Notes: a model not told the origin generated them from the letters alone. A stretch of 48,469 nt of DNA from Promethearchaeota archaeon (GCA_019057865.1 JAHLWP010000034.1:1-48469), one strand, 5' to 3'; positions 2,229-48,469 are shown, numbered from the stretch's first letter. A program made the numbers and translations.

Positions 2229-2307
2229 AATTCGAATAAAAAGTTCGATATTAGGGAAGTATAATTTTTAAAATAATTTTAAAGTAATAATAAATAATTC
2301 TATTTTA

Positions 2308-3237
2308 ATGGCTGAGCTAATAGGATTTATTCTAACAATTGATGCAATATTTACATGGGCTTTAGCCTCCTTAGTATATAAGTGGGCTCTCGGAAAAACC
2401 CCAGCTAAAGGAAATTTATTTTTTCGTCTTTGCTGTACTAGTGTTGGAACATTTCTTTTCTCATTAGCTTTTGGTAATTATTTATTTCTTAAAAACCTTA
2501 ATGAACAAGAACTAATTGGTTATCTTATAGCTTGTATTATATCTGGTCTAAGTGTTACTATTGGAGATTTATTTTATTATATGTCTCTGAAAAGGATCGA
2601 TTCTTCAAGAGCATATCCACTTGTCCAACTTTCACTTCTTTTTGTATATCCCTTTTCTTTTATCTTTTTTGATGAAGAGATCACCTTTTCAATCCTAATA
2701 GGAGGTCTTATAATTCTTTCGAGTGTGTTTATCTTAAGTTCTAAGGATAAACCTGAAAATAGTAATTCTATCAACGAGGATAAATCTCCAGAAAAATTAA
2801 TATTAGGAGTAATATTAGCAATAGGAACTGCTTTTTTTTGGGCTCTTGCAATAGTTTCATTTAATCAGGCAAGGATTATAACTGGAGATGTATTTGTAAC
2901 AAACTTCTTTAGGGTAAGTTTTGCGATGATAGTTATTGGATTATTAGGATTATTTCAAAGGGAATATTTTGATGGCTTTAAAAAAGAAAATAGAAAAAAT
3001 TTGAAATATTTCATATATATTGGAATGGGGGGCATATTATCTCTTGGATTTGCTGATACTTTATTTTATAAAGCAGCAGGAATCAATGGTTTAGTTTTAA
3101 CCTCCACATTTACTGTAAATACTCCACTGATTCAACAAATTTTTTCAATACTTATTTTAAAGGAGAAATTTCGGAAAAGATTTATATTAGCAGTATTTTT
3201 AATGATCGCAGGTAATTATATTATCTTGTTTTTATAG
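2308..3237 (+). CDS. DMT/EamA family transporter
   Basis: About 10 TM helices in two repeats; ILKEKF-type repeat end. Confidence 0.85.
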   Translation: MAELIGFILTIDAIFTWALASLVYKWALGKTPAKGNLFFRLCCTSVGTFLFSLAFGNYLFLKNLNEQELIGYLIACIISGLSVTIGDLFYYMSLKRIDSSRAYPLVQLSLLFVYPFSFIFFDEEITFSILIGGLIILSSVFILSSKDKPENSNSINEDKSPEKLILGVILAIGTAFFWALAIVSFNQARIITGDVFVTNFFRVSFAMIVIGLLGLFQREYFDGFKKENRKNLKYFIYIGMGGILSLGFADTLFYKAAGINGLVLTSTFTVNTPLIQQIFSILILKEKFRKRFILAVFLMIAGNYIILFL

Positions 3238-3256
3238 AGATGGAGGATTTAAGACT

Positions 3257-4282
3257 ATGATCAAAATAGAAATAATTCTATTAACTAATAATGTAGTTCT
3301 CCCCTTTCACAATCTGAAATATGATCACGGTTTAGAATTTACTGAGTTAAATAGATTATATACTACTCGTTCTTTGGCCGAACATGGTTTAGGATTTTTG
3401 ATTAACGTATATGACGTACATGATTCACAAGATAAAGAAAATTATAAACTTATAAAAAAAATAATATTCGATACAGGGGGTCCAAATTTAACTTTCTTGC
3501 ATAATTTGGATGTCCGAGGTTATACTTTATATGATATAGACTATATACTATTGTCACATTGGCATTATGACCATGTTGGAGCTCTTTATAAAATTTTAGA
3601 AAAAATTGAAAAGAGAATTCCAATAATAAGTCACGATAGTTCAAAATATGAGAGATTTCACAGAAGATCAAGAGATCTTAGAAAGGATGATTTATTAGGT
3701 AAAAGAAGAGAGGAAATATTACATTTATTGTCAGAATCAAAAATAATAAACCAAGAACCTATTAATGTTAAAACTATAAATAACTTAAATGGAGAGGTGA
3801 TTTTTACAAAGGATCCTTATGAATTACTAAATAGGGATGAATTAAAAATTATTTTATCAGGAGAAATACCAAGGATTCATAATGATGAAGATGTTGACAG
3901 TGCATTATCACTACAGGACGATGTTCTCAAAACAGACAAAATTCTGGATGATAAATGCTTAATATTTGAATTTAAGGATAAAGTCATTTTATTAAATGGT
4001 TGTTGCCATTCTGGTCTCAAAAATACATTAGATTATGTGAAGCAAATAACAAATAAACCTATAAGTCATATTATTGGGGGCCTCCATATGGCAGGTGCCT
4101 CAGATAATAGAATTAAAACGACAATTAAATATTTGAGGACATTTCAAGAATTTGATAATATTTTATATATCTTTCCTATTCATTGTTCTGGTGAAAAATT
4201 TATTAGAGAAATAAACAAAATAAATACCCCCCAAATAAAAGGTTTCAATCTTAGCGTAGGGACAGTGTTTACTTTCTATTGA
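3257..4282 (+). CDS. MBL-fold metallo-hydrolase (MJ0301/MJ0448-like)
   Basis: AEHGLG, FDTG, SHWHYDH, GCCHSG, GGLHM, HCSG motifs. Confidence 0.85.
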   Translation: MIKIEIILLTNNVVLPFHNLKYDHGLEFTELNRLYTTRSLAEHGLGFLINVYDVHDSQDKENYKLIKKIIFDTGGPNLTFLHNLDVRGYTLYDIDYILLSHWHYDHVGALYKILEKIEKRIPIISHDSSKYERFHRRSRDLRKDDLLGKRREEILHLLSESKIINQEPINVKTINNLNGEVIFTKDPYELLNRDELKIILSGEIPRIHNDEDVDSALSLQDDVLKTDKILDDKCLIFEFKDKVILLNGCCHSGLKNTLDYVKQITNKPISHIIGGLHMAGASDNRIKTTIKYLRTFQEFDNILYIFPIHCSGEKFIREINKINTPQIKGFNLSVGTVFTFY

Positions 4283-4420
4283 ATTATGATAATATTTATA
4301 TAATTAGTTGAAGAAATAAAGAACAAGGATTTATTGATAATTAACAATTTCAACCATAAAAATAATAATATAAAAAACAAAAGTATATAATAGACTTTAT
4401 TCTGCAAATGGAGAATAAAA

Positions 4421-5098
4421 ATGCCACCCCTAAACGTAATAATTTTAAATAGAGGAAAAGTAAGAGCTGATGATTTTATTATTATTTCAATAATTGGTAC
4501 CTTTATTGTCCAAGCATTATTCTTTAAGTTGATTGCCTTAATGTCAATCATAGTTTTCCCTATGTTTACATTATTCCTTTATGGGATATATAAATTAATT
4601 TTAGGTTTGCTTAAAAAAGGTAAAGAAAATGTGAAAGATTTATTAATGGGTGTATTTTCAATCCCATTTGGATTATTTATTCTTATTAATATTTTTTCAC
4701 AACCTCATATATCAAGAGGATATATAATCTATTTTATAGCTATCCCAATAATGATTATTGGATTTGCAGGAATAATAAAAGGATTTCTTATTGAAGTTTA
4801 TTCAACCTTTCATCGAGCCATAAACATAATAATTGGTATAATAACTTTAATTGAAACTACTTTTGCATATATTATCTCAGAGACCTTATTTTTATTCCAT
4901 ATCCTTTTACTAGGTAGTATGCTTTTATTCAATGGGATCGCGAGAACAGCGCTATATTTAAGTGAATATAGAATATCAATAATACATTTAAGAAATTTAG
5001 TAATTTTGAAATTTCTTTTTCAAATAATCTCAGAAGTTCCAATCGAATTAGTCTCAGAAGACGTTTTAGAATATGAAGAAAATAAACTAAACAAATAG
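4421..5098 (+). CDS. hypothetical multi-pass membrane protein (DUF308/HdeD-like)
   Basis: About 6 hydrophobic helices; GGAG upstream of the ATG. Confidence 0.6.
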   Translation: MPPLNVIILNRGKVRADDFIIISIIGTFIVQALFFKLIALMSIIVFPMFTLFLYGIYKLILGLLKKGKENVKDLLMGVFSIPFGLFILINIFSQPHISRGYIIYFIAIPIMIIGFAGIIKGFLIEVYSTFHRAINIIIGIITLIETTFAYIISETLFLFHILLLGSMLLFNGIARTALYLSEYRISIIHLRNLVILKFLFQIISEVPIELVSEDVLEYEENKLNK

Positions 5099-6532: not shown

Positions 6533-7477
6533 GTGATGCAAATGAAAATATTAATTAGCGATAAACTCCAAGATGAAGGTATCAAAATCTTAGAAGATAA
6601 TGGATTTGAGGTCATTAAAAATTTCAATATAACCAAAGAAGAACTAAAAGAGGAAATAGGAGAATACGATGGCATTGTAATTCGTTCAAGAACTAAGTTA
6701 ACTGCTGATATTTTAGAAAATGCTAAAAACTTAAAAGTTATCGGGAGAGCAGGAGTTGGTTTAGATAATATAGATAGAAAAAAGGCTTCTGAATTGAATA
6801 TCGGGGTTTTAAATACACCTGAAGCACCTGCTATATCCGTTGCAGAATTAGCATTAGGAATGATGCTAGCGCTAGCAAGAAAAATTGCTCATGCAGATCG
6901 TACAATGCATCAAGGCAAATGGAACAAAAATGAATATCTAGGATTTACATTAGATGGAAAAAAACTGGGATTGTTAGGATTTGGAAATACAGCAAAACAT
7001 TTAGCAAAAATTTCAATTGCTATGGGAATGAGTGTTGGTGTTTATTCTAGATTTAGTAAAGGTCAAGTAGCTATTGATGAAGCGAAAGAAGTTGGATGTT
7101 TAATTTATCCTTCAGTTGAGGATCTATTAAAAAATGCTCAGATTATATCACTACATCTTCCGTCTACACCACAAACTGAAAATATAATCAATGAGGATAG
7201 AATAAAACTTATGAGAAAAGATGCAATAATTATTAATACAGCAAGAGGCAATTTAATTGATGAAAAAGCTTTATTAAAAGCTTTAAAAAACAAAGACATT
7301 GCTGGGGCAGCCCTTGATGTTTATCGTGAAGAACCCTTAAAAGATCAAGAATTGATTAATTGGGATGAGAATTTAGTACTTACACCTCATATAGCTAGCC
7401 AAAGTATCGAAAATCAGTCTGCCGCCGCTACTATGATAGCCAAAAAAATGTCAGATTTTCTAAAAAAAAGTAAATAA
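6533..7477 (+). CDS. serA: D-3-phosphoglycerate dehydrogenase (short form, no ACT domain); true start may be the ATG a few codons in
   Basis: RAGVGLDNID, SVAE, INTARG, ALDVY.EEP, TPHIA. Confidence 0.82.
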   Translation: MMQMKILISDKLQDEGIKILEDNGFEVIKNFNITKEELKEEIGEYDGIVIRSRTKLTADILENAKNLKVIGRAGVGLDNIDRKKASELNIGVLNTPEAPAISVAELALGMMLALARKIAHADRTMHQGKWNKNEYLGFTLDGKKLGLLGFGNTAKHLAKISIAMGMSVGVYSRFSKGQVAIDEAKEVGCLIYPSVEDLLKNAQIISLHLPSTPQTENIINEDRIKLMRKDAIIINTARGNLIDEKALLKALKNKDIAGAALDVYREEPLKDQELINWDENLVLTPHIASQSIENQSAAATMIAKKMSDFLKKSK

Positions 7478-7485
7478 TTTTTTTT

Positions 7486-8688
7486 TTAAATTTCCTTTAA
7501 ATCATGCAGAACTAAGCCCGAAAGAACTTTTGGGTCAAACCATGTAGATTTTGGAGGGAGTACTCCTCTTTCTTCTGCGATAAATTCTATATCTCTGATA
7601 TCTACTGGATATAAATTAATAAATAAATCATTTCCTTCGCTAGTTATGTATTTTTCCATTTCTCTTGGATCCTGTAAACCTCCAATAAAGAAAAGATTTT
7701 CATCAGCACGAGGATCCTTTATGCCTAAAATAGGCTCCAAAACTCTATCTTGGAGGATACTTACATCCAAACTATCTTTCTTAGTGGTAAATTTTCTTTC
7801 CTTAACCATAAGTTTATACCATTTACCTTTCAAACAGATAGCCATCTCATTCTTCTTCTCTGGATTAAATGGTTTTTTCATAGGGTTTATGTTGAAATGA
7901 TCCTCTAATTTTTTTAAAAAATCGGTTTCAGATAATGGGAGTTTTTTAATCACACGATTATATGCCAAAATACGAATTTGGTCGTCAGATGCTACATAAG
8001 ATAATAAATAATGCCAAGGAGCTCCATTAGCTTTTTCTAAAACAGACTTTTTCAATTGTATCTTACGATATTCTGCAGCACTAGCGGCTCTATGATGTCC
8101 ATCAGCAATGTAAACTTTTTCGTTCTTAAATAAGTCTTTTAGTTTTTGTATTACCGTCTGATCCGTTTCTTGCCATAGCAGATGTCGATATCCATATTTC
8201 TTAAAATCAAATTTCGGTTTTTTTTGCTTTATTTGCTCAATTAAATCATTAATTTCATTATTAGTTTGAAAAACTGTCCATACTAAACCTGCCGCAACAT
8301 TAGAAGCAATAATATGATTAGTACGGTCTTTAAGCGGTTTTTCACGGGTGTGTTCATGTTTTACAATATTTCCATCTTCATAATCCTGAAGAGAAATCCC
8401 CAATATCAATCCTTGATGACTAAATTGAGCAGATTCTTGTCGATAGACAAAAATACTTGGTTTTTCTTCTTTTTTAATTACCTTGTTCTTTTTAAACTCT
8501 CTATAGGCTTTACCAGCATTTTTATAAATTTCTTCAGCCGTTCCTTCTGGTAAAATGAGATGTATTAATGAATTGGGATTTTTCTTTAACTCTTCCTCTT
8601 CCTCTTTACTTATAACATCATACGGATTAGTACAAAATTCTTCTGGATCTGAAGGAATATACGGTCTTATTGGAAAAATTAATACCAT
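7486..8688 (-). CDS. DUF1015 family protein (ParB/Srx-like fold)
   Basis: PYDVI, HEHT, IADGHHR, PPKSTWFDPK..SGL. Confidence 0.88.
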   Translation of the reverse strand: MVLIFPIRPYIPSDPEEFCTNPYDVISKEEEEELKKNPNSLIHLILPEGTAEEIYKNAGKAYREFKKNKVIKKEEKPSIFVYRQESAQFSHQGLILGISLQDYEDGNIVKHEHTREKPLKDRTNHIIASNVAAGLVWTVFQTNNEINDLIEQIKQKKPKFDFKKYGYRHLLWQETDQTVIQKLKDLFKNEKVYIADGHHRAASAAEYRKIQLKKSVLEKANGAPWHYLLSYVASDDQIRILAYNRVIKKLPLSETDFLKKLEDHFNINPMKKPFNPEKKNEMAICLKGKWYKLMVKERKFTTKKDSLDVSILQDRVLEPILGIKDPRADENLFFIGGLQDPREMEKYITSEGNDLFINLYPVDIRDIEFIAEERGVLPPKSTWFDPKVLSGLVLHDLKEI

Positions 8689-8866
8689 TATCCTCCGCTC
8701 TGCTGAAATTAATTCTTTTTAAGATTTGATCATATTAATTTCGAAAATTATATAAAATAAATCTCTCATACTAGTTATAAGTTGTGATTTAATAATTTAT
8801 TCTTATACACTAAATTAAAAATATTCTATAAAAACCATTTTTAACCAAATTAAGAGTTAGAGAACG

Positions 8867-9871
8867 ATGTCTAAAGATTTAAGGAATATGTTAGATGATA
8901 TCGAATCTAGTGAGAAAAAAACAGCTGTTTTACAATCAAAAGCAGATAGATTAAAAGAGTTAGTAGAAAAGCAAAATGGGATTATTAGCAATCAAGAAGC
9001 TATAATTGAAGAGCAAAAAGAAAAGATATCTAAAATGTATGATATTCCAGAAGATATATTGGAATTGAAGGAAATAATTGGAGAACAACGTCAACTTCTT
9101 AATGAAAGAGAGGTTGAATTGGAATATTCAAAAGGTGAGGTAGCTCAAGCAAAAAGGGAATTAGAATTGGTCCAAAAGCAAATTATCCCTACACAACACA
9201 AATTAGAAGAAACTTTTGAAACAATTGGAAATTTACGGACAGAATTAGCTGAAAGAAATTCTGAATTAATTCTAAAAAATGAAGCAATCAAGAACTTAGA
9301 AAATAGAATACAAGAGTTACAAGCTTTTACCGATAAATTCAAAGAAGAACAATTAGAAATGATAAAGGAAATGGAAGAAAAACGTAGAAAAGAAACACAA
9401 GAATTAAAAGTTGAGATTGGTAAACTTGATTCATTCTTGTTAGACAGTAAATTAATCTCGACTGAGAAATCTTCAGAAGCAAAAGATATGGCGTCTAGAT
9501 TTGAACAGATTCGAGAAAAATATGAGACCTTAATCAATAAAGTAGGGGAATTAAGTGATAAAAATCGAGAAGCTAACGCAGAGATTCTTAAACTTAAATC
9601 TATAATTGAAGGAACACAAGATGCCGAAGAAACAAGTATTCAAAAAATAAAATATTATGATAAATTAAAACCCTTAATGGAAAGAGAACCTCTTTTTAAA
9701 GCATTCCTAATCGTCGATAAAGTAGGATCGATTTCATTGGAAGATTTACGAAAAGCTCTTGGTTCTCCGATTGTGACAGTAAAAAAGAATATTCAACAAT
9801 TACAAGATATTGGTCTCCTTGAAACTGATGATTTTGGGAAAATTTCAGTTAAGAAAGTTGATGAATTATAA
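8867..9871 (+). CDS. long coiled-coil protein with C-terminal winged helix
   Basis: About 270 aa of heptad-rich E/K/L sequence, then ISLEDLRKALGSPIVTVKKNIQQLQDIGLL. Confidence 0.75.
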   Translation: MSKDLRNMLDDIESSEKKTAVLQSKADRLKELVEKQNGIISNQEAIIEEQKEKISKMYDIPEDILELKEIIGEQRQLLNEREVELEYSKGEVAQAKRELELVQKQIIPTQHKLEETFETIGNLRTELAERNSELILKNEAIKNLENRIQELQAFTDKFKEEQLEMIKEMEEKRRKETQELKVEIGKLDSFLLDSKLISTEKSSEAKDMASRFEQIREKYETLINKVGELSDKNREANAEILKLKSIIEGTQDAEETSIQKIKYYDKLKPLMEREPLFKAFLIVDKVGSISLEDLRKALGSPIVTVKKNIQQLQDIGLLETDDFGKISVKKVDEL

Positions 9872-9896
9872 TTTAAACCTTTCTTTAAATTTTTAT

Positions 9897-10274
9897 TTAG
9901 ATTTTCGCTAAATCTCGATATAAACTTGGTAATAACTTTTTAAATTTACCATCTTCAATTTTATCAAGAATTTCAGCAGCAATCGTTTTTAAAATTTCCC
10001 TATATTTATGAGGTTTCTCATCTCGTCTCAGTATAAGAGCAACAACATAATTTTCGACAGATATATGATCTCTTCCTACTCCAGAGAAAAATGAAACGAC
10101 TTTGTTATTTCTAAGAGAGATGCTTGCGAAACCAGGGTGAAGACTTTGGTACCTGTGGCTAGAGTATACTTGAGTAAGCAAATTATTAGTAATTTTTAAA
10201 TTACCAGGATAAAAGCCTTCATTGATTGGCCCAATCTCATTGTCCCACCGAATTACAAGGATACCCACAGGCAC
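9897..10274 (-). CDS. stand-alone longin/uDENN-like domain protein
   Basis: GTG start with GAGGT upstream; N-terminal ILVIRWDNEIGP...FYP matches the uDENN/NPR2-type longin strand-GP-YP pattern. Confidence 0.65.
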   Translation of the reverse strand: MPVGILVIRWDNEIGPINEGFYPGNLKITNNLLTQVYSSHRYQSLHPGFASISLRNNKVVSFFSGVGRDHISVENYVVALILRRDEKPHKYREILKTIAAEILDKIEDGKFKKLLPSLYRDLAKI

Positions 10275-10645
10275 GATATATACCTCAATCGATATTAAAT
10301 TTTTATAATAAGAAATTATATTCTTGTGATATCTATCTTATCTAATTTCTTATTAATAACTATAATCAATATAATTTTGCTATTATTTTAATATATTTTT
10401 ATTATTTATTTGTTATTATTTTTTTATAAATTTCATTCTTATTGGTTTAATTTTTACTAAATTTATTTTAGTAGTAATTTGTAAATATTGCTCTACTATT
10501 TGAAAAATTTACTTTAAGGGCATAATTTCAAAGTAAAAATTTAAATTAAAACTAAAATTTTTGAATATTGTCCATCAACGCAAATAGAAAATAAAAATCG
10601 TCTCTTAATGTAGGATTACGAGTTTATTTCTATCTCATAAAAAGT

Positions 10646-41319: not shown

Positions 41320-41454
41320 TAAATAAAGCGAATATAAAAAGATAACGTCTAAAGATAGTATGACCTTTAAAAATTCTTAAATTATTAGATTGCTCTATTA
41401 GTTCCATCATTTTAAACGAGTATATCGTTTAAGCTAGGATACTGTGTAAAGATT

Positions 41455-42243
41455 TCATGATAGAAAGTCATCTAAAGTTGGATTTTTCATTATATAAGTT
41501 TTTTCATCATTTTTCGATTTATTTATGAATATACTTTTTGAATTACTGTATAATATTTTAGAAACTTGATCTACATCAATTAACTTTATATTTGCAATAG
41601 TTTCTATTATCTTAGGAAAGTCTTCTGGTTTTGTAATAGTACCTTTATACTTATATGGAGCGTTACTTTCTAATAATAGTCTATTTATAGGTATTTTAGA
41701 AATATATTTTTGATATTTCTTGAAATTGATAATGCATTTATTAAATGAAAAATAATAGCCATTTTCAAGAATCTTTTCGATATATTGAATATTTCCACTA
41801 TACCAGTGAAATACTACAAAATTCAGATTAAATGAACTTAAAATTTCTAAGATCTCTTCCTCGGCATTAACTACATGAAGTATAACGATTTTATCATATT
41901 TCTCAGCTATTTTTAATTGTTGTATTAAATATCTAAATTGAACTTTTAAAGAATTAAATTTTCTTAGAAAATCCAATCCACATTCACCAATAATATCAAC
42001 TTTTTCTTTAATAAGGTCTAATATACTACTTATTTCAAATTCGGAATATTTTTTATTTGGATGTAATCCAATACCTAAAAAAATATTCTTCTTTAGAGAT
42101 AATAATTGGTTTAAAAAAGTAAAAGAATTAATATCATCACATAAAGAAACAATGTTTTTTATATTAAAATAAAAATACTCCTTTATAACTGAAAGTGGGG
42201 ATTTAAATTGATCTAAATGTAAATTACAGTCGAAAAATTTCAT
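41455..42243 (-). CDS. qatD: TatD-family nuclease, QatD-like, with degenerate metal ligands
   Basis: GLHP, IGECGLDF, LH, FHWYSG, LLLESNAPY; N-terminal DCNLH. Confidence 0.75.
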   Translation of the reverse strand: MKFFDCNLHLDQFKSPLSVIKEYFYFNIKNIVSLCDDINSFTFLNQLLSLKKNIFLGIGLHPNKKYSEFEISSILDLIKEKVDIIGECGLDFLRKFNSLKVQFRYLIQQLKIAEKYDKIVILHVVNAEEEILEILSSFNLNFVVFHWYSGNIQYIEKILENGYYFSFNKCIINFKKYQKYISKIPINRLLLESNAPYKYKGTITKPEDFPKIIETIANIKLIDVDQVSKILYSNSKSIFINKSKNDEKTYIMKNPTLDDFLS

Positions 42244-42248
42244 TATTT

Positions 42249-43427
42249 CTATTGAGAATAATTAATTTTATATATTCTACTACTTTCATCATAAAAGGCT
42301 GTAAGTTTCCATTCAAAAGAATCTTTCTTAAGAGAGAAAAGAAAGTTATTACCCTGTACAAAAGTAGATAGAAAAATTCTTTCTAGTTCAGGAAAATAAT
42401 GTTTTAAAGACGCTTCAATATCCTCATTGCTAAAAGAATTATCCAGTTTAAAAAGAAACTTATAACATTTATTATCTGTATCAACTTCTATTTCTAAAGA
42501 TTCCCAAAAGTCCGATTCATATAATTTTAAACCCTTTAAACGTGGTCTATTCCATTCTTGAATATTATCACATAATATTAATAAACATCCAAAAGGATTC
42601 TTCAAAAAATTTACATTGATTTTTCTTTGTTTTTCAATTGAATGTATTGCTATAGCACAACAAGCAATATTTAATTCCTGTAAGTATTGAACCTTTAATA
42701 TTTCATTATCTAGAGAATCAATATCTAAATATATTGTATAATGTAAGAATAATGAACTCATTATACCATGATCACGCATTTTATAATTCTCAAGTAATTC
42801 ATTATAAATTATCTTCTTCTGTTCTTCTCGGTCATTGTTTTGCTTCAAAATAAATTTATTATTTTCTCCAATTATAATCCCCTCTGTAAGGATTTTCATA
42901 TAATCCTTAAAAATTTTATCAAGTTCATCAGATATTGTCAATCTAATCTCAGATAACTTTATACCTCCTATTCTTTCAAAATAAGTTCTCTGAATCTCAA
43001 TACCCAAATCAATTAACTTTTCAACCATATATCCAATATCATGATAAAAGGAAATTAAAAACCATGTCCTCAAAAATCTATTCATATTTGAAAAAAAATC
43101 AATCGGGAGACTTTCCACGTTTGCTCTTTCAACAATATAACATCCTAAGAGAAAGATTTGAAAAGAATGAATTAGATGGTCTCTGTAATATAAATATTTA
43201 TACAAAAAATCATCCTCGAATTTTTTCAAATTCATTAAAAATTGACGTGAATTTGAAAATCTTAAGAAATATCGCTCATGAAGTATTTTAAAAAGTTCAA
43301 GAGTTAATTCCCTTCTACGATTGATATTATCTTCATTAATATATTTTTTAATCAAATCTGTACCTAGATCTAGTTTTACATAATTCCAATGAATAGATTT
43401 TTCTAGTAGGAATTTATCTAATGTCAA
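42249..43427 (-). CDS. HD-domain metal-dependent phosphohydrolase
   Basis: RDH..H, HDIGY, DHG, AIH, CDNIQEW.R; TTG start 2 nt after the upstream stop. Confidence 0.8.
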   Translation of the reverse strand: MTLDKFLLEKSIHWNYVKLDLGTDLIKKYINEDNINRRRELTLELFKILHERYFLRFSNSRQFLMNLKKFEDDFLYKYLYYRDHLIHSFQIFLLGCYIVERANVESLPIDFFSNMNRFLRTWFLISFYHDIGYMVEKLIDLGIEIQRTYFERIGGIKLSEIRLTISDELDKIFKDYMKILTEGIIIGENNKFILKQNNDREEQKKIIYNELLENYKMRDHGIMSSLFLHYTIYLDIDSLDNEILKVQYLQELNIACCAIAIHSIEKQRKINVNFLKNPFGCLLILCDNIQEWNRPRLKGLKLYESDFWESLEIEVDTDNKCYKFLFKLDNSFSNEDIEASLKHYFPELERIFLSTFVQGNNFLFSLKKDSFEWKLTAFYDESSRIYKINYSQ

Positions 43428-43429
43428 TT

Positions 43430-44866
43430 TTATATAACACCTATTAAATCTGTGTCTTTTATTCTTTTACGTGTCTCTTCATAAAATTTATTTCTTATTA
43501 TGGTTCTAGTAATCAATTTATTTATTTTCCTATTGTAATAATTCCATATATAATAATCAGCATCTTGGTAGTCTGGATAAGTCTCAAAAAAGTAATACAA
43601 CCCAGTTAACATATCAAGAGCAAATCTCTTTAGTAATTGCCAAATATCCTCATAATATTTACTAATCTGTTCACATTTTTTAACAATAGGACGATATAGA
43701 TCATAATACTTATCCATCCGATGAATTCTTTCTTCTTCACTAATGCCTACATTTCTTCTAAGAGTTTGGTAACAAAACTTAATCAATTCTATAATCATTT
43801 TTGCTTCATCATTTGTATTGATATATGAAATATCTTTAGTAAAAGGATCTCTTTCATTATCAATATAATACCTTTTATCCTCATCACTTTTAGGATCTTT
43901 ATAATCAGGGTCATAGTTGTCATCATCATAATTTCCATATGCATAAGCAGAAAATCGTCTTACATAACATGGAAAACAAAAAAAACATGATTTCTTCTTA
44001 TGATAAAATACAGAACATGAATGAGATCGCTTTAGTATATCCTCTCGAACACTATCCATTAATTCTGCTTTTGTATATTCTCTAAAAGGTAATCTAACTT
44101 TTATTATTTCTTCATTCTCAAAATAGTTATATAAAAAAGTATTGAAAAAAGCTATAAACTCCGGATTTGTTGTATTTGTAAAAGTATGGGAACTTGTAAA
44201 AGGAGGATTAATAGTCAAGGGTCCATTTTCAGTTACTAAAATATTTTTTATCCCTAGAGCATAGTTTATAGGAACTGCATTACATAAATAAAGTAATGTT
44301 CTTGTTTGATTAATATTCATTTTTTCTATTCTATCTTTTCTACCTATATTTCTGATATCTGCTTTACTATAAAATTGGCCATCTACTTCAATAAGACGCA
44401 TTTTCAAATCTTTAATAAAATTCCTTATCATATCTATTGATGGAGTATTTTTATGATATATATGAGTAAAAATAATTTTCTTTTTATTCTTTAATACCCA
44501 ATGATTCGCACCGCACATACTGTCAACTCCCCCAGAGATAAGAATATTAGCATAATAGTCCTCAACATTTTCAGGTGTATCTATTTCATTATCAATTTCA
44601 TCAATTTCTTCAAATTCAACAAAAATCTTCTTTTTAATTCCAGTATACCTATATAATAAAACATTTATTAATCGGTCTAATGGTTTTTTTGAATTTTGCC
44701 AATTCCTAATATTTTTGGTCTCAAATATTAGATTATTATCTTCAGCAAACCTCTCAATGTAATAAATACATTTTCCAAATTGGGGGATCTCTTTTATAAA
44801 ATTAGGTATTTTATTATCAGGAAATAATGGTCTTATGTTCTTAAAAAAGTCATGGGACATTTCCAA
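43430..44866 (-). CDS. qatC: QueC-like PP-loop ligase of the QatC type (start could be ATG 44860, TTG 44866 or ATT 44884)
   Basis: SGGVDS, Q.R..LYL, ENG...INPP, T.TT.P.F, PF...TKAE, SCS...C..C.PC.VRR. Confidence 0.82.
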   Translation of the reverse strand: MEMSHDFFKNIRPLFPDNKIPNFIKEIPQFGKCIYYIERFAEDNNLIFETKNIRNWQNSKKPLDRLINVLLYRYTGIKKKIFVEFEEIDEIDNEIDTPENVEDYYANILISGGVDSMCGANHWVLKNKKKIIFTHIYHKNTPSIDMIRNFIKDLKMRLIEVDGQFYSKADIRNIGRKDRIEKMNINQTRTLLYLCNAVPINYALGIKNILVTENGPLTINPPFTSSHTFTNTTNPEFIAFFNTFLYNYFENEEIIKVRLPFREYTKAELMDSVREDILKRSHSCSVFYHKKKSCFFCFPCYVRRFSAYAYGNYDDDNYDPDYKDPKSDEDKRYYIDNERDPFTKDISYINTNDEAKMIIELIKFCYQTLRRNVGISEEERIHRMDKYYDLYRPIVKKCEQISKYYEDIWQLLKRFALDMLTGLYYFFETYPDYQDADYYIWNYYNRKINKLITRTIIRNKFYEETRKRIKDTDLIGVI

Positions 44867-44886
44867 AATTTCCGAACTTTTAATGG

Positions 44887-45240
44887 TTATCCCTCCAATT
44901 CCTTGAATAGGGATTTAATAGAATTAGCTTGTTTTTTTACAAGTGAGTCAACATACTTTTGGATTTTTTGAATTTCTTCTTGAAATATCTCTTGCGAAAA
45001 AATCTTATTTTTAATAAGAAAGTCTTTAAGTTCTTTAACTGAAGTTCTTATATTTTCTTTTAAATGAGAAATTAATTGTTCTTTGGTTTTACTTGGTAAT
45101 TCTTTAGTCTCGCCTGTAGATTTATCAATATAATAATTAAAGTTTGTACCTGTAAAATCTGTACTCATTATTCTCATAGATTCAGCATATAAATAATCTC
45201 TAACATATTCAATTAAAATATCAACATAATTTTCCGTAAT
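44887..45240 (-). CDS. helical protein, putative C-terminal part of a split QatB-like gene (frame open from ATT 45240)
   Basis: In frame with the upstream MGTAS ORF and separated from it by one TAA; GGAGGGG lies 7 nt before ATT 45240. Confidence 0.55.
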   Translation of the reverse strand: MTENYVDILIEYVRDYLYAESMRIMSTDFTGTNFNYYIDKSTGETKELPSKTKEQLISHLKENIRTSVKELKDFLIKNKIFSQEIFQEEIQKIQKYVDSLVKKQANSIKSLFKELEG

Positions 45241-45456
45241 TTAGATGCCCCTCCGAATATCTTTTGTAGAAATAAATGAATTAGCATCATCTAGAGCATC
45301 CATTATTCCTTGTGGACCGCTTACTTCAAGGGTAGCCCAATAAACAATCCTCGCTGCTGAATCATAGTCACTACTATCAATAAAATCAGAAAATAAAGAA
45401 GAACTATCAATTATTGCCTTATTTTTCCTCTTTCTCCTAACACTCGCAGTTCCCAT
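45241..45456 (-). CDS. 71-aa QatB-like protein beginning MGTASV (putative QueC-type modification substrate)
   Basis: ATG 45456 gives MGTASVRRKRKNK...; QatB N-termini begin MGTS; first gene of the cassette. Confidence 0.6.
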   Translation of the reverse strand: MGTASVRRKRKNKAIIDSSSLFSDFIDSSDYDSAARIVYWATLEVSGPQGIMDALDDANSFISTKDIRRGI

Positions 45457-45683
45457 AAAAGATCGACTTTTGGTAGAAAAGAATATTAATATTTGGTATT
45501 TAAAATATTTAATATTTTCCAAATTTTACTTTTTTGAAAAAAAGGGTTTTAATATAATAATTCTTAAAAATAAGTAAAAAAAGGATTTAAAAGATGAAAT
45601 ACAGGAATTAATAATGCTCCAATTACGCTACCTATTAAAACAAAGTTTGTATAAAAAATTTTATTAATAAAAACCTAATGGTG

Positions 45684-48469
45684 TTATAATATCTTTTCAT
45701 AAATCTTATGAAGATCGCCAGGCGATTTTTTACCTAATTTGCGAATTTGCGCCATTTGTTTAAGCGTAGGTCTCGCTATTTCCATTTTATAGACCCATTT
45801 TTTTACAGTTCGTTCTGTTATTTTTACTTTAAAAATTTCAAAGTGTAAATCAGCAATTTCTTCATAAGTCATATACCAAACTAATTGTTCTAACTGTTCT
45901 TTCGTAATCATAAACTTTTGCCGGCTTTGTGCGAAATTTCTCAATCTTTCCATTCTTTCTTGATGTTCTTCAAGTCTAATTCTTTTACTTGGTAAACTTT
46001 TTTGATAATTATCTAACATTTCATTGAATAATTCAGCCCCTAAAGTTAATCGCCAATAAATACCATCTTTATTTTTATTTTGTCTTACTTCATACCTAAT
46101 ATTAAATTTATTTTTAATGTTTTCAAGAAATCTTTTACTTTTTGAATCAATTTGAGAAGTTCCAGTTTCCCCATCTCCATCAAAAAAGCCAAGAAGGAAT
46201 GCTAAATATAATTGACGGTTCTTCCTAATATTTTTAAAATCAGGTAATTTTATACGATGCGATTTTTTACCGATATTCCAACCTAGTTCAATTAAAGTAT
46301 TTGGGAAGTCCATTCTTGAAAAACTGATTCTTATTCTTACAAAACCTTTCTTAAGATTATCATATTCTACATACTTTGGATTAAATCCTATAGCTTCGAT
46401 GAATCGAATTAATAGAATCTCATCTTTTTTATTGCATCCCACACCCCATTCTAAATATGGGTACCCTTCATGTTTAATTAGAGAAAGCCATCCTTCAGCA
46501 TATAACCATCCAAGCCAGTAAGCTTTTTCCTTAGTATCAATTTTTTTAAAGTAATTAAGATTGAAATCTGGGTGTTTATCTAATATTGATCCATAAGTAT
46601 ATTGTCTTAGAGTATTTTCATTTTTGTATTTTTCAAATAATAATATAATATTATGAGGTATATCCCTCCCTTTTTTCTTTAATGAAGTTTTAAGGTTTGA
46701 TAAATAACTTTGTAATTGCTCTAATGAAATTTCTGTTTTATCAGAAATTTTACTTTTAACGTGGGATTCGGTTTCTCCAAATAGCTTGCTTAAAACTCTA
46801 TTCTTAACTTTTCCTGCATAAATCTCATTGGTAGAAAGAAGAGGAGCTAACTCTATTTTAATCTCATTTAAAAAGTCAACAGCTTTATAATTAAATTTGT
46901 TAATCTTTTCTTTAATTGAAAAATAATCTTCCAACATTTTTATTTTAATATATCTATAGAAATCCCAGCCCCATTTGACATAATTTTTGGTATGCAACTT
47001 AAAAGATACACCAAAAATTTCAATTAATTGATCAGTATCCAGTTTACTCAGAAGTAATATTAAATTTTTTCTTTCTTGATTGCTTATAATCTCCTTATTA
47101 ATGATCTGTATGATTTTATCTTTATAATTTTCCTTCAAGTTCTTTATAGAGGCTATACTTTCATTTAAAAATTTCTTCCAATTTTCACCCTTTCTTAAAT
47201 TTTTTATTTCAGATAATTTTTTTGAGGCTTTTTTAGAGATTTCATATTTTTTAGACAGATTTCTGAGAAATTTATATTTTATTTCACTAATTAGCGCAGG
47301 ATTCCACCAATGACGTTCTTGAAAGTATGCTTTAAATCCGCTTATATTCAAATATATATGTAAGTGAATTAGATCGATATGATGGAGTCTGTTTATAATA
47401 GAGATTATTTTATCTCTTTCTTTTTCAGTTAATTCTCCGTTTTTATATTTTTTATATAATTCTTCCAAATCTTCATAGTCTTGGAAATTACAGAGTATCT
47501 CTTTCAGAATTTCTTTAAGTTCAGAGCTGAGCATCTCTTCTGGAGATCCCTCTATCCACTTTTTAAGTTTCTTTTGCCATTTCTCCTCTTTTAGTTCCTT
47601 CTCTTCTAATTCTTCAGTTTTTAATTCTTGCTGTTCTAACCATTGGCTAAATCCTTTTGTCTCTTTTCCAGCATATATCGGTCTTTTACCAGTTTCTTGG
47701 CGATATAATTGCTGGAGTTTATTATACTCTTCTTCTGTTTCTTCACTTTCTGACTTTTTTTCTTTCTCTATAAATTCCTTGCTTTTTTCTTGATAAGACT
47801 CTAGTTCATCTACTTCGATGTTATCTAATCCTGTGTAGATCTCCTCTTCTGCTTCCTTTTTTTCCATTACTTGTTGGGTTTCACTATTCTCTTCGTTATT
47901 ATGAATAAAAATTTGCCCAAATTGCTCTTGTTCTTCAAGATCCAAATATTCTCCATCAATTTCAACTTGTTTGATTCCTGATTCTTCACTCACATCGTTT
48001 TCTTGTTGACTTTCTTCTATTTCATTTAAGAAGAAATTATCTGCGATTTCTTCCATTTTTTCATCGATTTCTTCTTGAAATTTTCCTTGTTGGTATAATT
48101 CTTCTTCATTATCTGCAAGATATTCTATCGCACCTACTCTTTCGATCTCTTCTCTGGTATCCTCTTCATCTCCTTCATCGTCATGGTCAACTGACTTTAA
48201 TTTTTCTTTCTCTTGTTTTTCATAGAGCTGTTCAACACTCTTTAAGAGTGTATAAGTTTCTTCTGCTTCCTGCATTAAATTCCTTATTTCTTCAGAACTC
48301 TTCCCTTCTTGTTCATATTGTTCATATTTTTCCCATAGATAATCAAATTCTTCTGGTTCTATCTCTGCCGCTTCTGTTATATCATTGAGATTTTCCTCTT
48401 GTGTTTCACTAGAATGTATTTCCTCAATATGCTCTTCCTTCTCTTGTTCCTCCGAGTTTAGTTGCTCTT
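45684..48469 (-). CDS. large acidic protein with a C-terminal double-motif LAGLIDADG endonuclease-like domain and HTH; 5' end lies beyond the window
   Basis: Frame stays open from 48467; E/Q-rich N-terminal region; KAYWLGWLYAEG and LAFLLGFFDGDG; C-terminal MTYEEIA...TVKKW. Confidence 0.8.
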   Translation of the reverse strand, partial: EQLNSEEQEKEEHIEEIHSSETQEENLNDITEAAEIEPEEFDYLWEKYEQYEQEGKSSEEIRNLMQEAEETYTLLKSVEQLYEKQEKEKLKSVDHDDEGDEEDTREEIERVGAIEYLADNEEELYQQGKFQEEIDEKMEEIADNFFLNEIEESQQENDVSEESGIKQVEIDGEYLDLEEQEQFGQIFIHNNEENSETQQVMEKKEAEEEIYTGLDNIEVDELESYQEKSKEFIEKEKKSESEETEEEYNKLQQLYRQETGKRPIYAGKETKGFSQWLEQQELKTEELEEKELKEEKWQKKLKKWIEGSPEEMLSSELKEILKEILCNFQDYEDLEELYKKYKNGELTEKERDKIISIINRLHHIDLIHLHIYLNISGFKAYFQERHWWNPALISEIKYKFLRNLSKKYEISKKASKKLSEIKNLRKGENWKKFLNESIASIKNLKENYKDKIIQIINKEIISNQERKNLILLLSKLDTDQLIEIFGVSFKLHTKNYVKWGWDFYRYIKIKMLEDYFSIKEKINKFNYKAVDFLNEIKIELAPLLSTNEIYAGKVKNRVLSKLFGETESHVKSKISDKTEISLEQLQSYLSNLKTSLKKKGRDIPHNIILLFEKYKNENTLRQYTYGSILDKHPDFNLNYFKKIDTKEKAYWLGWLYAEGWLSLIKHEGYPYLEWGVGCNKKDEILLIRFIEAIGFNPKYVEYDNLKKGFVRIRISFSRMDFPNTLIELGWNIGKKSHRIKLPDFKNIRKNRQLYLAFLLGFFDGDGETGTSQIDSKSKRFLENIKNKFNIRYEVRQNKNKDGIYWRLTLGAELFNEMLDNYQKSLPSKRIRLEEHQERMERLRNFAQSRQKFMITKEQLEQLVWYMTYEEIADLHFEIFKVKITERTVKKWVYKMEIARPTLKQMAQIRKLGKKSPGDLHKIYEKIL

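What the first reader, a model, noticed from the sequence alone, without database searches (positions are those of the whole stretch)
41455..45456. Candidate new Qat-like defence system in an Asgard archaeon: split QatB-like + QatC + HD phosphohydrolase + QatD, with no QatA
Seen: five co-oriented ORFs with gaps of 0-20 nt in very AT-rich DNA, between a housekeeping sirtuin and a LAGLIDADG gene. The QueC-like protein has an intact PP-loop (SGGVDS), four Zn-binding Cys and the ENG..INPP/TT.P motifs of QatC rather than the shorter tRNA-pathway QueC. A TatD ends the operon. Known: QatABCD is an antiphage system made of a KAP P-loop NTPase, QatB, a QueC-like protein and TatD. Defence QueC homologues (QatC, Cap9 of type IV CBASS) have been reported to attach a deazaguanine base to the N-terminal Gly of a partner protein. 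Inference: no Walker A NTPase exists in this cassette and an HD enzyme sits between qatC and qatD, so this may be a distinct architecture in which protein deazaguanylation is coupled to an HD nucleotide-hydrolysing effector.
Basis: partly seen in the sequence, partly recalled or inferred. Interest (0 to 1): 0.9.

Follow-up and report, generated by a model that had tools for sequence, protein, structure and literature searches.

The report
Asgard Qat-like cassette with HD enzyme
A small accessory operon in an Asgard archaeon looks like a rebuilt version of the bacterial Qat anti-virus system: its substrate protein is split into two small proteins, and an HD-type metal enzyme of an undescribed family stands where no QatA ATPase is found.

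Summary
On the minus strand, 41455-45456 carries five tightly coupled genes. They encode a 71-aa protein starting MGTAS, a 117-aa helical protein, a 478-aa QatC-like enzyme, a 392-aa HD-fold protein and a TatD/QatD nuclease.

The same cassette recurs in at least eight diverged lineages, all from metagenomes. The named ones are Asgard MAGs (Promethearchaeota, Helarchaeota). Flanks always differ. The HD gene follows the QatC-like gene in every locus; TatD is missing in two. No QatA/KAP NTPase was found in the genome, estimated 99.7% complete. A 77%-identical relative lacks exactly 41344-45593.

The "split QatB" is two real genes, not a broken one. The second starts at ATT or TTG at the first one's stop, behind a GGAGGGG motif, and lies in another frame in two loci. 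Homology to QatB is not detectable, but the N-terminal motif is invariant. A predicted three-chain complex puts residues 2-7 of the small protein against QatC (score 0.83, controls 0.00).

The chemistry QatC installs is unknown even in bacteria, so "deazaguanylation" is unproven. The HD effector role and the defence function are inferred.

Verdict: a new variant of a known kind, not found in the papers searched. This scan has noted other QatC-core cassettes in bacteria.

The parts
45241..45456 (-). orf1: 71-aa protein with an invariant MGTA[S/G]xRxxRK N-terminus. Proposed acceptor substrate, functionally like the N-terminal tail of QatB.
   Evidence: It is 71 aa in seven related loci, 69 in L025 and 67 in L026. 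M1, G2, T3 and A4 are invariant in alignment A3. Residues 2-7 and 9 touch the QatC-like chain in the predicted complex. No PADLOC QatB hit.
45248..45254 (-). GGAGGGG Shine-Dalgarno-like motif inside the end of orf1, 7 nt before the ATT start of orf2.
   Evidence: Read from the sequence. Related purine-rich motifs sit 6-9 nt before the orf2 start in all eight loci.
44887..45240 (-). orf2: 117-aa helical protein starting at ATT directly after the TAA of orf1. Proposed QatC-docking partner, functionally like the helical body of QatB.
   Evidence: The start is ATT in six loci and TTG in two. It lies in another frame from orf1 in L021 and L025. The first 21 residues upstream of the first ATG are conserved as protein. 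Residues 15-57 contact QatC residues 224-226 and 345-396 in the predicted complex.
43430..44866 (-). QatC-like QueC-family PP-loop enzyme, 478 aa.
   Evidence: PADLOC QatC 9.7e-18 and Pfam QueC 5.5e-7. The only PDB relatives of the clade profile are QatC 9vlk (7.8e-8) and 9zee. Motifs checked.
42249..43427 (-). 392-aa HD-superfamily metal enzyme with a small C-terminal beta-rich domain (about residues 305-392). It has no Pfam or PADLOC family.
   Evidence: AF2 model with pLDDT 79.6 and pTM 0.85. The best structural matches are almost all HD-fold: PPX/GppA Z 10.9 (rmsd 3.0, 163 aligned), PDE9A 10.3, YhaM 10.2, Cas3-HD 6.9, SAMHD1 6.9. H84, H87, H129, D130, H220, H262 and D287 are invariant in the clade and nearly so in 150 distant representatives.
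41455..42243 (-). TatD/QatD-like nuclease, 262 aa, with N-x-H in place of HxH and, in this genome only, ESN for ESD.
   Evidence: Pfam TatD_DNase 4.8e-49 and PADLOC QatD 3.6e-30. Alignment A7.
41344..45593 (.). Extent of the accessory insertion relative to a congeneric genome.
   Evidence: In G224, similarity to the window stops at 41343 and resumes at 45594, with about 780 nt in between instead of 4.25 kb. No terminal repeats were found.

Best explanation
This is a discrete, horizontally mobile five-gene operon. It is an Asgard-archaeal variant of the Qat anti-virus system, built on a QatBC-like core.

Step 1 (anatomy shown, binding predicted): the 71-aa orf1 protein and the 117-aa orf2 protein together take the place of QatB. 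Orf2 docks on the C-terminal extension and active-site loop of the QatC-like enzyme. The N-terminus of orf1 is Gly2 after Met removal, and it reaches into the enzyme's substrate pocket.

Step 2 (inferred from the PP-loop family mechanism and QatBC genetics): the enzyme uses ATP to adenylate a still unknown carboxylate substrate and joins it to the N-terminal amine of orf1.

Step 3 (inferred): the modified complex controls, or acts with, the two hydrolases that are translationally coupled downstream. These are an HD-fold enzyme, probably with a two-metal centre (phosphodiesterase, nuclease or nucleotide hydrolase), and a TatD-type nuclease. The HD enzyme is the constant partner and the TatD is optional. 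No QatA ATPase takes part.
For: **Component identities**
- QatC HMM 9.7e-18 and QatD HMM 3.6e-30.
- The clade profile matches only QatC in the PDB.
- QatC-type motifs are kept and QueC-type motifs are absent.

**Recurrence**
- The gene order small + small + QatC-like + HD recurs in all related loci: L005, L007, L010, L021, L023, L024, L025 and L026. Their QatC-like proteins are 34-87% identical to the window's. Flanks are always unrelated.
- Start and stop codons overlap by 4 nt between QatC/HD and HD/TatD in several loci.

**orf1 and orf2**
- The orf1 N-terminus MGTA is invariant. This matches the essential MGTS motif of QatB (PMC13279940).
- Predicted complex of orf1 + orf2 + QatC-like: score 0.83, best of 3 controls 0.00. 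That mark was reached by 58 of 80 solved complexes and 2 of 110 mismatched pairs. The runs agree in at least 81% of contacts, and the partner pLDDT is at least 82.
- In that model orf1 residues 2-7 touch the enzyme. The enzyme's contacts include the TxT loop (224-232), the Zn-Cys region (297-299) and the C-terminal extension (345-404). This mirrors the published QatBC interfaces (PMC13279940).

**HD protein**
- HD fold and conserved metal-ligand set.

**Accessory nature**
- 1 of 54 genomes of the genus carries the cassette.
- It is a clean indel against G224.
- Defence-type neighbours occur in other loci: HEPN, PIN, NYN, Schlafen-like helicase, NB-ARC STAND, a DNA methylase.

**Published background**
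- QatBC alone suffices for defence in bacteria, and QatA and QatD are accessory (PMC13279940). A QatA-less system is therefore plausible.
Against: - No experiment bears on defence in any archaeon.
- orf1 and orf2 show no significant sequence or fold similarity to QatB. hhalign probability is 0.6-3%, there are no PDB fold matches and no QatB HMM hit.
- The complex is a prediction, made with my own shallow alignments and with three chains, which is unlike the calibration set.
- In this window the neighbours are housekeeping genes, not a defence island.
- The TatD has N-x-H for HxH throughout the clade. In this genome it also has Asn for the metal-1 Asp, so it may be weakened here (residues per PMC13434339).
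- The wider HD family sits in unrelated, non-defence contexts, so nothing independent marks it as an immune effector.
- The housekeeping queC and queD of this genome look fragmentary. If 7-carboxy-7-deazaguanine is the substrate, its supply is in doubt.
Confidence: 0.6

Rival explanations
1. The core is the same, but the HD protein is not the killing effector. It acts on the modification itself. It could remove or process the group put on orf1 (an eraser or maturase), or make or destroy a nucleotide signal. The TatD, or the QatBC-like complex itself, would then do the damage.
For: HD is linked to the QatC-like gene more tightly than TatD is: it is present in all loci, while TatD is absent in L023 and L026. 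Its structural neighbours include phosphodiesterases that process nucleotide-protein adducts (SidE-family PDE domains, Z 6.8-7.5) and cyclic-nucleotide PDEs (Z 9-10). Bacterial QatBC defends without any nuclease (PMC13279940). QatD is reported to be inhibited by NTPs (PMC13434339), so an NTP-hydrolysing HD could release it.
Against: No substrate can be read from the fold. Z values of about 10 for a helical protein show only superfamily membership.
Confidence: 0.2
2. The cassette is not antiviral. It is an accessory protein-modification or nucleic-acid-repair module, for example regulated N-terminal tagging of a small protein for some cellular or plasmid-related function.
For: No defence assay exists. 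The neighbours in this window are housekeeping genes. TatD enzymes also work in repair (PMC13434339). Other QatC-like enzymes noted in this scan sit in non-defence contexts such as surface-sugar clusters.
Against: The distribution is very patchy (1 of 54 in the genus). The cassette is an indel against a close relative. Flanks change constantly, and defence-type genes surround several copies. Two components are homologous to an experimentally proven anti-phage system.
Confidence: 0.15
3. It is a decaying canonical qat operon: a qatB broken by a nonsense mutation, qatA lost, and an unrelated gene inserted.
For: orf1 and orf2 share a frame, with a single TAA between them, in the window and five other loci.
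Against: The split is conserved at the same codon in nine loci with 34-87% QatC identity. In L021 and L025 orf2 is in a different frame, with its own ATT start and SD-like motif. All five genes are intact and conserved as proteins. In the FastTree, the QatC-like proteins of the HD-linked loci group together, apart from canonical QatC.
Confidence: 0.02
4. The QueC-like gene is the housekeeping 7-cyano-7-deazaguanine synthase of the archaeosine pathway, as NCBI names its homologues.
For: Relatives are annotated 'MAG: 7-cyano-7-deazaguanine synthase'. There is a weak Pfam QueC hit. The genome has arcTGT, and its other queC looks fragmentary.
Against: At 478 aa it is about twice the length of the Pfam QueC model (210 positions). 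YxDC and VPxRN are absent in 15 of 15 clade members. The QatC model outscores the QueC model (62 against 25 bits). Only QatC matches in the PDB. The gene is present in 1 of 54 genomes of the genus. E. coli QatC does not complement a queC deletion (PMC13329287).
Confidence: 0.02

Closest known systems
qatABCD anti-phage system (Gao et al. 2020), especially its QatB-QatC core (PDB 9vlk, 9zee; PMC13279940, PMC13376578, PMC13639016)
   Same: - A long QueC-family enzyme with SGGxDS, TxT in place of Tyr/Asp, P(x)4TK and a Cys4 zinc site.
- An upstream partner beginning Met-Gly-Thr.
- A predicted docking mode that uses the enzyme's C-terminal extension and active-site loop.
- A TatD-family gene at the 3' end.
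- Accessory, patchy distribution.
   Different: - No QatA.
- The partner is two polypeptides (71 + 117 aa) with no detectable homology to QatB.
- The second partner gene starts at ATT or TTG.
- An HD-fold enzyme sits between the C and D genes and is the invariable companion.
- The enzyme's N-terminal-extension motifs differ.
- TatD has N-x-H instead of HxH.
- All named hosts are Asgard archaea. A published survey of 631 loci lists seven gene combinations, none with an HD gene and all bacterial (PMC13434339).
Type IV CBASS Cap9-CD-NTase pair (N-terminal deazaguanylation; cited in PMC13279940)
   Same: A QueC-family enzyme is paired with a protein whose N-terminal glycine is the acceptor.
   Different: Cap9 is minimal (about 185 aa) and keeps the QueC Tyr/Asp nucleobase pocket. 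Here the pocket is QatC-type (TxT) and the enzyme is long. There is no CD-NTase, Cap10 or cyclic-nucleotide effector.
Second split-partner variant in the same phylum (L031 and L032: G023, G011)
   Same: An MGTAS-protein, then a roughly 100-aa helical protein starting at the first one's stop, then a QatC-like enzyme (PADLOC 1.9e-27). The second small protein matches the orf2 profile weakly, at E about 1e-4 in a ten-sequence search.
   Different: The first protein is 130 aa. There is no HD gene. TatD is transcribed divergently upstream. Its QatC lies outside the group of HD-linked QatCs.
HD-superfamily phosphohydrolases and nucleases (PPX/GppA domain, class I PDEs, YhaM, Cas3-HD, SAMHD1, HD-GYP)
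   Same: Shared helical HD fold and an H..HD..H..H..D ligand pattern, which from general knowledge of the superfamily is typical of members with two metals.
   Different: No Pfam HD hit (best E 0.22 in one of seven members) and no sequence match in the PDB. It belongs to a large unnamed family, with 2226 representatives at E up to 0.001, that has its own signature (RDHxxH, HDxGY, HG, H, CDxxQxWxR) and a C-terminal beta-rich domain.

Membership tests
QatC (QueC-family cluster 2 of PMC13329287) | SGGxDS PP-loop | tested here: met
   SGGVDS at 111-116; present in 15 of 15 clade members.
QatC (QueC-family cluster 2 of PMC13329287) | Invariant TxT in place of the QueC/Cap9 Tyr/Asp nucleobase motif (PMC13279940) | tested here: met
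   TNTTNP at 230-235 aligns with TRTTHP of 9vlk. TxTT[HN]P is present in 14 of 15 members and YxDC in 0 of 15.
QatC (QueC-family cluster 2 of PMC13329287) | Cys4 zinc site ending CxxCxxRR, and P(x)4TK | tested here: met
   C284, C294, C297 and C300 are invariant. CFPCYVRR and PFREYTK are present. The first spacer is shorter than in bacterial QatC.
QatC (QueC-family cluster 2 of PMC13329287) | Family HMM scores above the QueC model | tested here: met
   PADLOC QatC 62.3 bits against QueC 25.4 bits. The match covers only the core (model positions 96-374), and is far weaker than for a canonical Asgard-borne QatC (9.2e-117).
QatC (QueC-family cluster 2 of PMC13329287) | N-terminal-extension motifs D(x)4R(x)7WxR and DxW/YxxxF | tested here: not met
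   Found in 0 of 15 and 4 of 15 members, and not in the window protein. An N-terminal extension of similar size exists, but its sequence has diverged.
QatC (QueC-family cluster 2 of PMC13329287) | Forms a complex with an upstream partner whose N-terminus enters the active site | tested here: met
   Prediction only: score 0.83, best of 3 controls 0.00. The mark was reached by 58 of 80 solved complexes and 2 of 110 mismatched pairs. Contact agreement is at least 81% and partner pLDDT at least 82. orf1 residues 2-7 are in contact.
QatB | Extreme N-terminal MGTS motif with an essential Gly2 | tested here: met
   MGTA[S/G] is invariant in eight loci. Position 4 is Ala instead of Ser.
QatB | Sequence homology to QatB (PADLOC QatB models; Pfam PF28083) | tested here: not met
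   No PADLOC hit. No hit of three QatB models in the genome. hhalign against a 16-sequence QatB profile gives probability 0.6-3%.
QatB | One polypeptide of about 260-290 aa: disordered tail plus a ten-helix globular domain | tested here: not met
   Two genes of 71 and 117 aa. The read-through model of both (pLDDT 84.5) is a few long helices plus a hairpin.
QatB | Fold like solved QatB | tested here: inconclusive
   No QatB chain appears among the Foldseek or VIA matches. The structure library ends on 2026-04-08 and may not hold QatB.
QatD / TatD nucleases | TatD TIM-barrel family membership | tested here: met
   Pfam TatD_DNase 4.8e-49 and PADLOC QatD 3.6e-30.
QatD / TatD nucleases | Type II HxH motif and the metal-1 Asp (His-8, His-10 and Asp-196 of A. 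baumannii QatD, PMC13434339) | tested here: not met
   The motif is N-[LI]-H in all six cassette TatDs. ESD is ESN in the window only. E87, H123 and H146 are kept.
qatABCD system (four-gene definition) | QatA KAP-family NTPase in the operon | tested here: not met
   No PF07693 match on the contig, and only marginal P-loop matches elsewhere. No QatA HMM match in the genome, estimated 99.7% complete. No Walker A motif in the cassette. QatA is absent from all related loci.
HD superfamily | H...HD...D metal-ligand motif | tested here: met
   H84/H87, H129-D130, H220, H262 and D287 are invariant, and are kept in 135-149 of 150 distant representatives.
HD superfamily | HD helical fold | tested here: met
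   Nearly all of the top 50 solved matches are HD-fold proteins. The best is 6pc0_A: Z 10.9, rmsd 3.0, 163 aligned. The Z values are moderate for a helical protein.
HD superfamily | Pfam HD (PF01966) model match | tested here: not met
   0 families at E 0.01. The best is 0.22 in one of seven members.
Canonical QueC (preQ0 synthase) | YxQxHxxE, VPxRN and YPDC catalytic motifs (PMC13329287) | tested here: not met
   Found in 1 of 15, 0 of 15 and 0 of 15 members, and none in the window protein.

The most novel reading that the evidence does not exclude
The cassette is a distinct immune pathway so far seen only in Asgard archaea. In it a QatC-type enzyme writes a nucleobase-like or other carboxylate mark on the N-terminal glycine of a free 71-aa protein. 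The strictly linked HD enzyme reads, processes or is switched on by that mark. A protein N-terminal tag would then act as the second messenger that controls a metal-dependent phosphodiesterase or nuclease, without any NTPase sensor.
Probability: 0.15. Interest if true: 0.8.

Novelty: new variant of a known kind. Interest (0 to 1): 0.6.

Why it matters
What QatC makes, and how a tagged QatB stops a virus, are open questions (PMC13279940, PMC13376578).

This variant offers a natural simplification. The acceptor is a separate 71-aa protein, which should be easy to analyse by intact mass. The docking part is a separate 117-aa protein. The constant downstream partner is an enzyme whose activity can be assayed.

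It also extends Qat-type tagging systems to the archaeal lineage closest to eukaryotes. It shows the QatBC-like core being recombined with different output modules. And it gives a first functional context to a large unnamed HD-fold family, with more than 2000 representative sequences.

The conserved ATT and TTG starts behind an SD-like motif are also a clean comparative case of non-AUG initiation in Asgard archaea.

Tried and rejected
- **QatB homology.** PADLOC QatB models on the proteins and on the genome gave nothing. Profile searches of orf1 and orf2 against PDB sequences gave nothing or noise. hhalign against a QatB profile was not significant. Its best local alignment joins orf2 residues 8-70 to QatB 185-241, which is only a hint.
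- **Fold of orf1 and orf2.** The model of orf1 and orf2 read through the TAA had no convincing match in Foldseek PDB or the wide VIA search (best Z 7.0, dynamin stalks).
- **Read-through or recoding of the TAA.** Rejected, because orf2 is out of frame in L021 and L025 and always has its own ATT or TTG start and SD-like motif.
- **HD protein by sequence.** No Pfam, PADLOC or PDB-sequence hit. Foldseek PDB gave no clear hit. HD-CE (PF24391) came up only as a weak language-model lead and has no HMM match in the genome. A literature search for 'HD-CE' returned only unrelated papers.
- **More copies.** Species-representative genomes gave none apart from the own genome. JGI metagenomes gave only loci already known. 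IMG/VR viral contigs gave none. A protein search seeded with the L026 enzyme gave only itself and three known members.
- **Contexts of distant HD-family members.** No shared theme.
- **Terminal repeats at the insertion ends.** None above AT-rich noise.
- **Tree.** One script call for a tree failed without an answer and was redone with FastTree.

Full report
**1. The observation**

The window is the whole of contig C69 of a 4.26-Mb, 87-contig genome with estimated completeness 99.67%.

On the minus strand, five ORFs follow one another:
- orf1, 45456..45241, 71 aa, starting MGTAS
- orf2
- a 478-aa protein, 44866..43430
- a 392-aa protein, 43427..42249
- a 262-aa protein, 42243..41455

Pfam and PADLOC identify the 478-aa protein as QueC-family. 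It scores better against QatC (9.7e-18) than against the QueC model (3.2e-6). The last protein is TatD_DNase (4.8e-49) and QatD (3.6e-30). The two small proteins and the 392-aa protein match nothing.

The flanks are a Sir2-family gene and a long acidic protein with a LAGLIDADG_3 match.

**2. Recurrence**

The QatC-like protein has only 14 relatives among 5.8 billion clustered proteins, at 43-87% identity. Every contig that could be read carries the same order: a 69-71-aa gene, a roughly 93-119-aa gene, the QueC-like gene, a roughly 386-393-aa gene and usually a TatD gene. The flanks are unrelated in each case.

The truncated ORF after the QatC-like gene in L025 is the same HD-like protein (4e-113). 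L023 has no TatD.

A more distant copy in a Helarchaeota MAG (L026) has a 67-aa gene, a 118-aa gene, a QueC-like gene of 445 aa and an HD-like gene of 401 aa. A NB-ARC/TPR protein follows, and there is no TatD.

So the constant unit is two small genes plus the QatC-like gene plus the HD-like gene, and TatD is optional. Named relatives come from Promethearchaeota and Helarchaeota MAGs, where they are annotated as 7-cyano-7-deazaguanine synthase. This supports the Asgard assignment.

None was found in IMG/VR viral contigs.

**3. Accessory nature**

Within the phylum sample of 400 genomes, only the window's genome carries a close copy. That is 1 of 54 genomes in its genus.

The neighbouring housekeeping block (tRNA-intron endonuclease, PIN-ATPase, sirtuin) is conserved in 50 of 54 genomes of the genus. 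In G224, which is 77% identical there, similarity stops at window position 41343 and resumes at 45594. About 780 nt lie in between, in place of 4.25 kb.

The rest of the window is housekeeping: NadA, EndA, HycI and an MFS transporter. No terminal repeats mark the ends.

In other loci the cassette sits among HEPN, PIN, NYN, Schlafen-type helicase, methylase and STAND NTPase genes.

**4. The two small genes**

In the window and five other loci, orf1 and orf2 share a frame with a single stop between them.

The comparison shows that this is not a broken gene and not read-through:
- The stop is at the same codon everywhere.
- The protein sequence directly after it is conserved.
- orf2 begins at ATT (six loci) or TTG (two loci), at or overlapping the stop, 6-9 nt after a GGAGGGG-like motif.
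- In L021 and L025 orf2 is in a different frame from orf1.

The true orf2 of the window is therefore 45240..44887, 117 aa.

orf1 has an invariant MGTA[S/G]xRxxRK start. Published work shows that QatB carries a highly conserved MGTS N-terminus on a long flexible tail. It also shows that Gly2 is essential, and that QatB and QatC form the minimal defence unit (PMC13279940).

**5. Are the small proteins QatB?**

By sequence and by fold, this cannot be shown:
- No QatB HMM hit.
- No PDB sequence hit.
- hhalign against a 16-sequence QatB profile gives probabilities of 0.6-3%.
- The confident model of both proteins read through the stop (pLDDT 84.5) finds no solved relative. The structure library may predate the QatB entries.

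Functionally the case is better. A three-chain prediction (orf1, orf2, QatC-like) scored 0.83 against a best control of 0.00. That mark was reached by 58 of 80 solved complexes and 2 of 110 mismatched pairs. The runs agree in at least 81% of contacts, and the partner pLDDT is at least 82.

In that model orf1 residues 2-7 touch the enzyme, and orf2 residues 15-57 pack on enzyme residues 224-226 and 345-396. This mirrors the two published QatBC interfaces, the C-terminal extension and the active-site loop, and the insertion of the tail into the pocket (PMC13279940).

Caveats: this is a prediction with my own shallow alignments. QatBC structures exist, so some memory effect cannot be excluded, although sequence likeness is very low.

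**6. The enzyme**

The clade profile hits only QatC chains in the PDB: 9vlk at 7.8e-8 and 9zee. SGGxDS, TxTT[HN]P, P(x)4TK and the Cys4/CxxCxxRR site are kept. The QueC motifs YxDC and VPxRN are absent, and so are the N-terminal-extension motifs of bacterial QatC (motif list from PMC13329287).

It is therefore a divergent QatC-type enzyme, not the tRNA-pathway QueC.

The literature proves deazaguanylation only for Cap9. For QatC the first substrate is unidentified, and the TxT pocket suggests something other than 7-carboxy-7-deazaguanine (PMC13279940, PMC13376578).

In this genome the separate queC and queD on C53 look fragmentary, while arcTGT is present.

**7. The 392-aa protein**

The alignment of seven orthologues has invariant RDHxxH, HD, HG, H and CD motifs. 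The AF2 model (pLDDT 79.6, pTM 0.85) is a helical domain plus a small beta-rich C-terminal domain.

Foldseek found nothing clear. In the exhaustive aligner, nearly all of the top 50 matches are HD-fold proteins:
- PPX/GppA: Z 10.9, rmsd 3.0, 163 aligned
- PDE9A: Z 10.3
- YhaM: Z 10.2
- HD-GYP, Cas3-HD, SAMHD1 and SidE-type PDE domains: Z 6.8-7.5

The ESM Atlas search agrees.

A profile search finds 2226 representatives at E up to 0.001, but only five are at cassette level, at E 8e-64 or better, while the next-best hit is only 3e-32. The ten tested have no Pfam family. The seven candidate metal-ligand residues and a QxWxR motif are kept in 132-149 of 150 representatives.

This is a large unnamed HD-superfamily family of presumably active enzymes. 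Its other members sit in unrelated contexts. The substrate cannot be read from this.

**8. TatD**

All cassette TatDs have N-[LI]-H where QatD has HxH. The window's copy alone has ESN for ESD. In A. baumannii QatD the HxH histidines and Asp-196 bind metal 1 (PMC13434339). The clade may therefore use one metal, like type I TatDs, and the window's copy may be weakened.

**9. No QatA**

PF07693 gives only marginal P-loop matches, on other contigs. The QatA HMM finds nothing in the genome.

The method is able to find it: another genome of the phylum (G013) carries a textbook qatABCD, with QatA 9e-121, QatB 4e-30, QatC 9e-117 and QatD 2.5e-66. Its QatB is 60-73% identical to Bacillota proteins.

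Two further genomes (G011, G023) carry a third form: an MGTAS protein of 130 aa, a 102-aa protein, a QatC-like enzyme and a divergent TatD, without HD.

In a FastTree rooted on the canonical QatC, the HD-linked enzymes group together. L026 falls at their base, weakly supported, and the G011/G023 form lies outside them.

**10. Comparison with what is known**

Published surveys list seven qat gene combinations in 631 bacterial loci, none with an HD gene (PMC13434339). They report that only about a third of QatC-cluster genes sit beside qatA or qatD (PMC13329287). The Asgard defence survey mentions Qat only in a list (PMC11291487). A search for QueC with HD domain and anti-phage found nothing relevant.

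This scan has itself noted other QatC-like cores joined to other output modules in bacteria: protease-PIN, a membrane protein with a small helper, and TIR-SLATT. The present cassette therefore fits an emerging pattern of one tagging core with exchangeable outputs.

**11. Verdict**

It is best called a new variant of a known kind.

Shown here:
- the gene set
- its recurrence
- its accessory nature
- the two-gene substrate with non-AUG start
- the QatC-type active site
- the HD fold
- the absence of QatA

Predicted: the ternary complex.

Inferred: the N-terminal modification, the role of the HD enzyme, and antiviral function.

Noticed in passing
window 45238-45254; L005, L007, L010, L021, L023, L024, L025 at the orf1/orf2 junction: orf2 starts at ATT (six loci) or TTG (two loci), 6-9 nt after a GGAGGGG-like motif embedded in the last codons of orf1. 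This is a clean comparative case of non-AUG, SD-driven coupled initiation in Asgard archaea.
   Followed up: yes
window 41455-42243: The TatD has N-L-H for HxH, a trait of the whole clade. It also has ESN for ESD, which is unique to this genome; the 97%-identical L007 copy keeps ESD. The window's nuclease may be partly disabled.
   Followed up: partly
L030 (G013:C35:4330-8984): A textbook qatABCD sits in another genome of the same phylum. Its QatB is 60-73% identical to Bacillota proteins. This means either recent transfer from bacteria or a contaminant contig in that MAG.
   Followed up: partly
L031 (G023:C86) 7432-10299; L032 (G011:C43) 1578-4446: A third Qat-like form: a 130-aa MGTAS protein, a 102-aa protein starting at its stop, and a QatC-like enzyme of 456 aa. 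TatD is transcribed divergently, there is no HD, and Schlafen/AlbA_2 and NYN genes lie nearby in L032.
   Followed up: partly
L036 (G000:C53:4197-7421), positions about 1471-2200: The genome's canonical queC is only a 92-aa C-terminal fragment. The adjacent queD is split into two frames. An arcTGT is intact on C80. The organism may salvage rather than make 7-deazaguanine precursors.
   Followed up: partly
G000:C52:1473-2429 (L034, L035): A 495-aa paralogue of the unnamed HD-fold family lies elsewhere in the same genome (E 2.6e-8 to the cassette profile).
   Followed up: no
proteins P0020-P0164: A large HD-superfamily family, with 2226 representatives at E up to 0.001, has no Pfam model. It has a near-invariant signature RDHxxH ... 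HDxGY ... HG ... H ... CDxxQxWxR. Lengths are 240-870 aa, and it occurs in bacteria and archaea.
   Followed up: partly
window 45684-48469: An acidic, low-complexity protein of more than 920 aa ends in a LAGLIDADG_3-like domain. It borders the cassette and runs off the contig. It is not part of the cassette in other loci.
   Followed up: no
L026 1-11540: The Helarchaeota copy lies between an N6/N4 methylase, a Schlafen-group-3-like helicase, a guanylate-cyclase-domain gene and a 940-aa NB-ARC/TPR STAND protein. This looks like a defence island.
   Followed up: no
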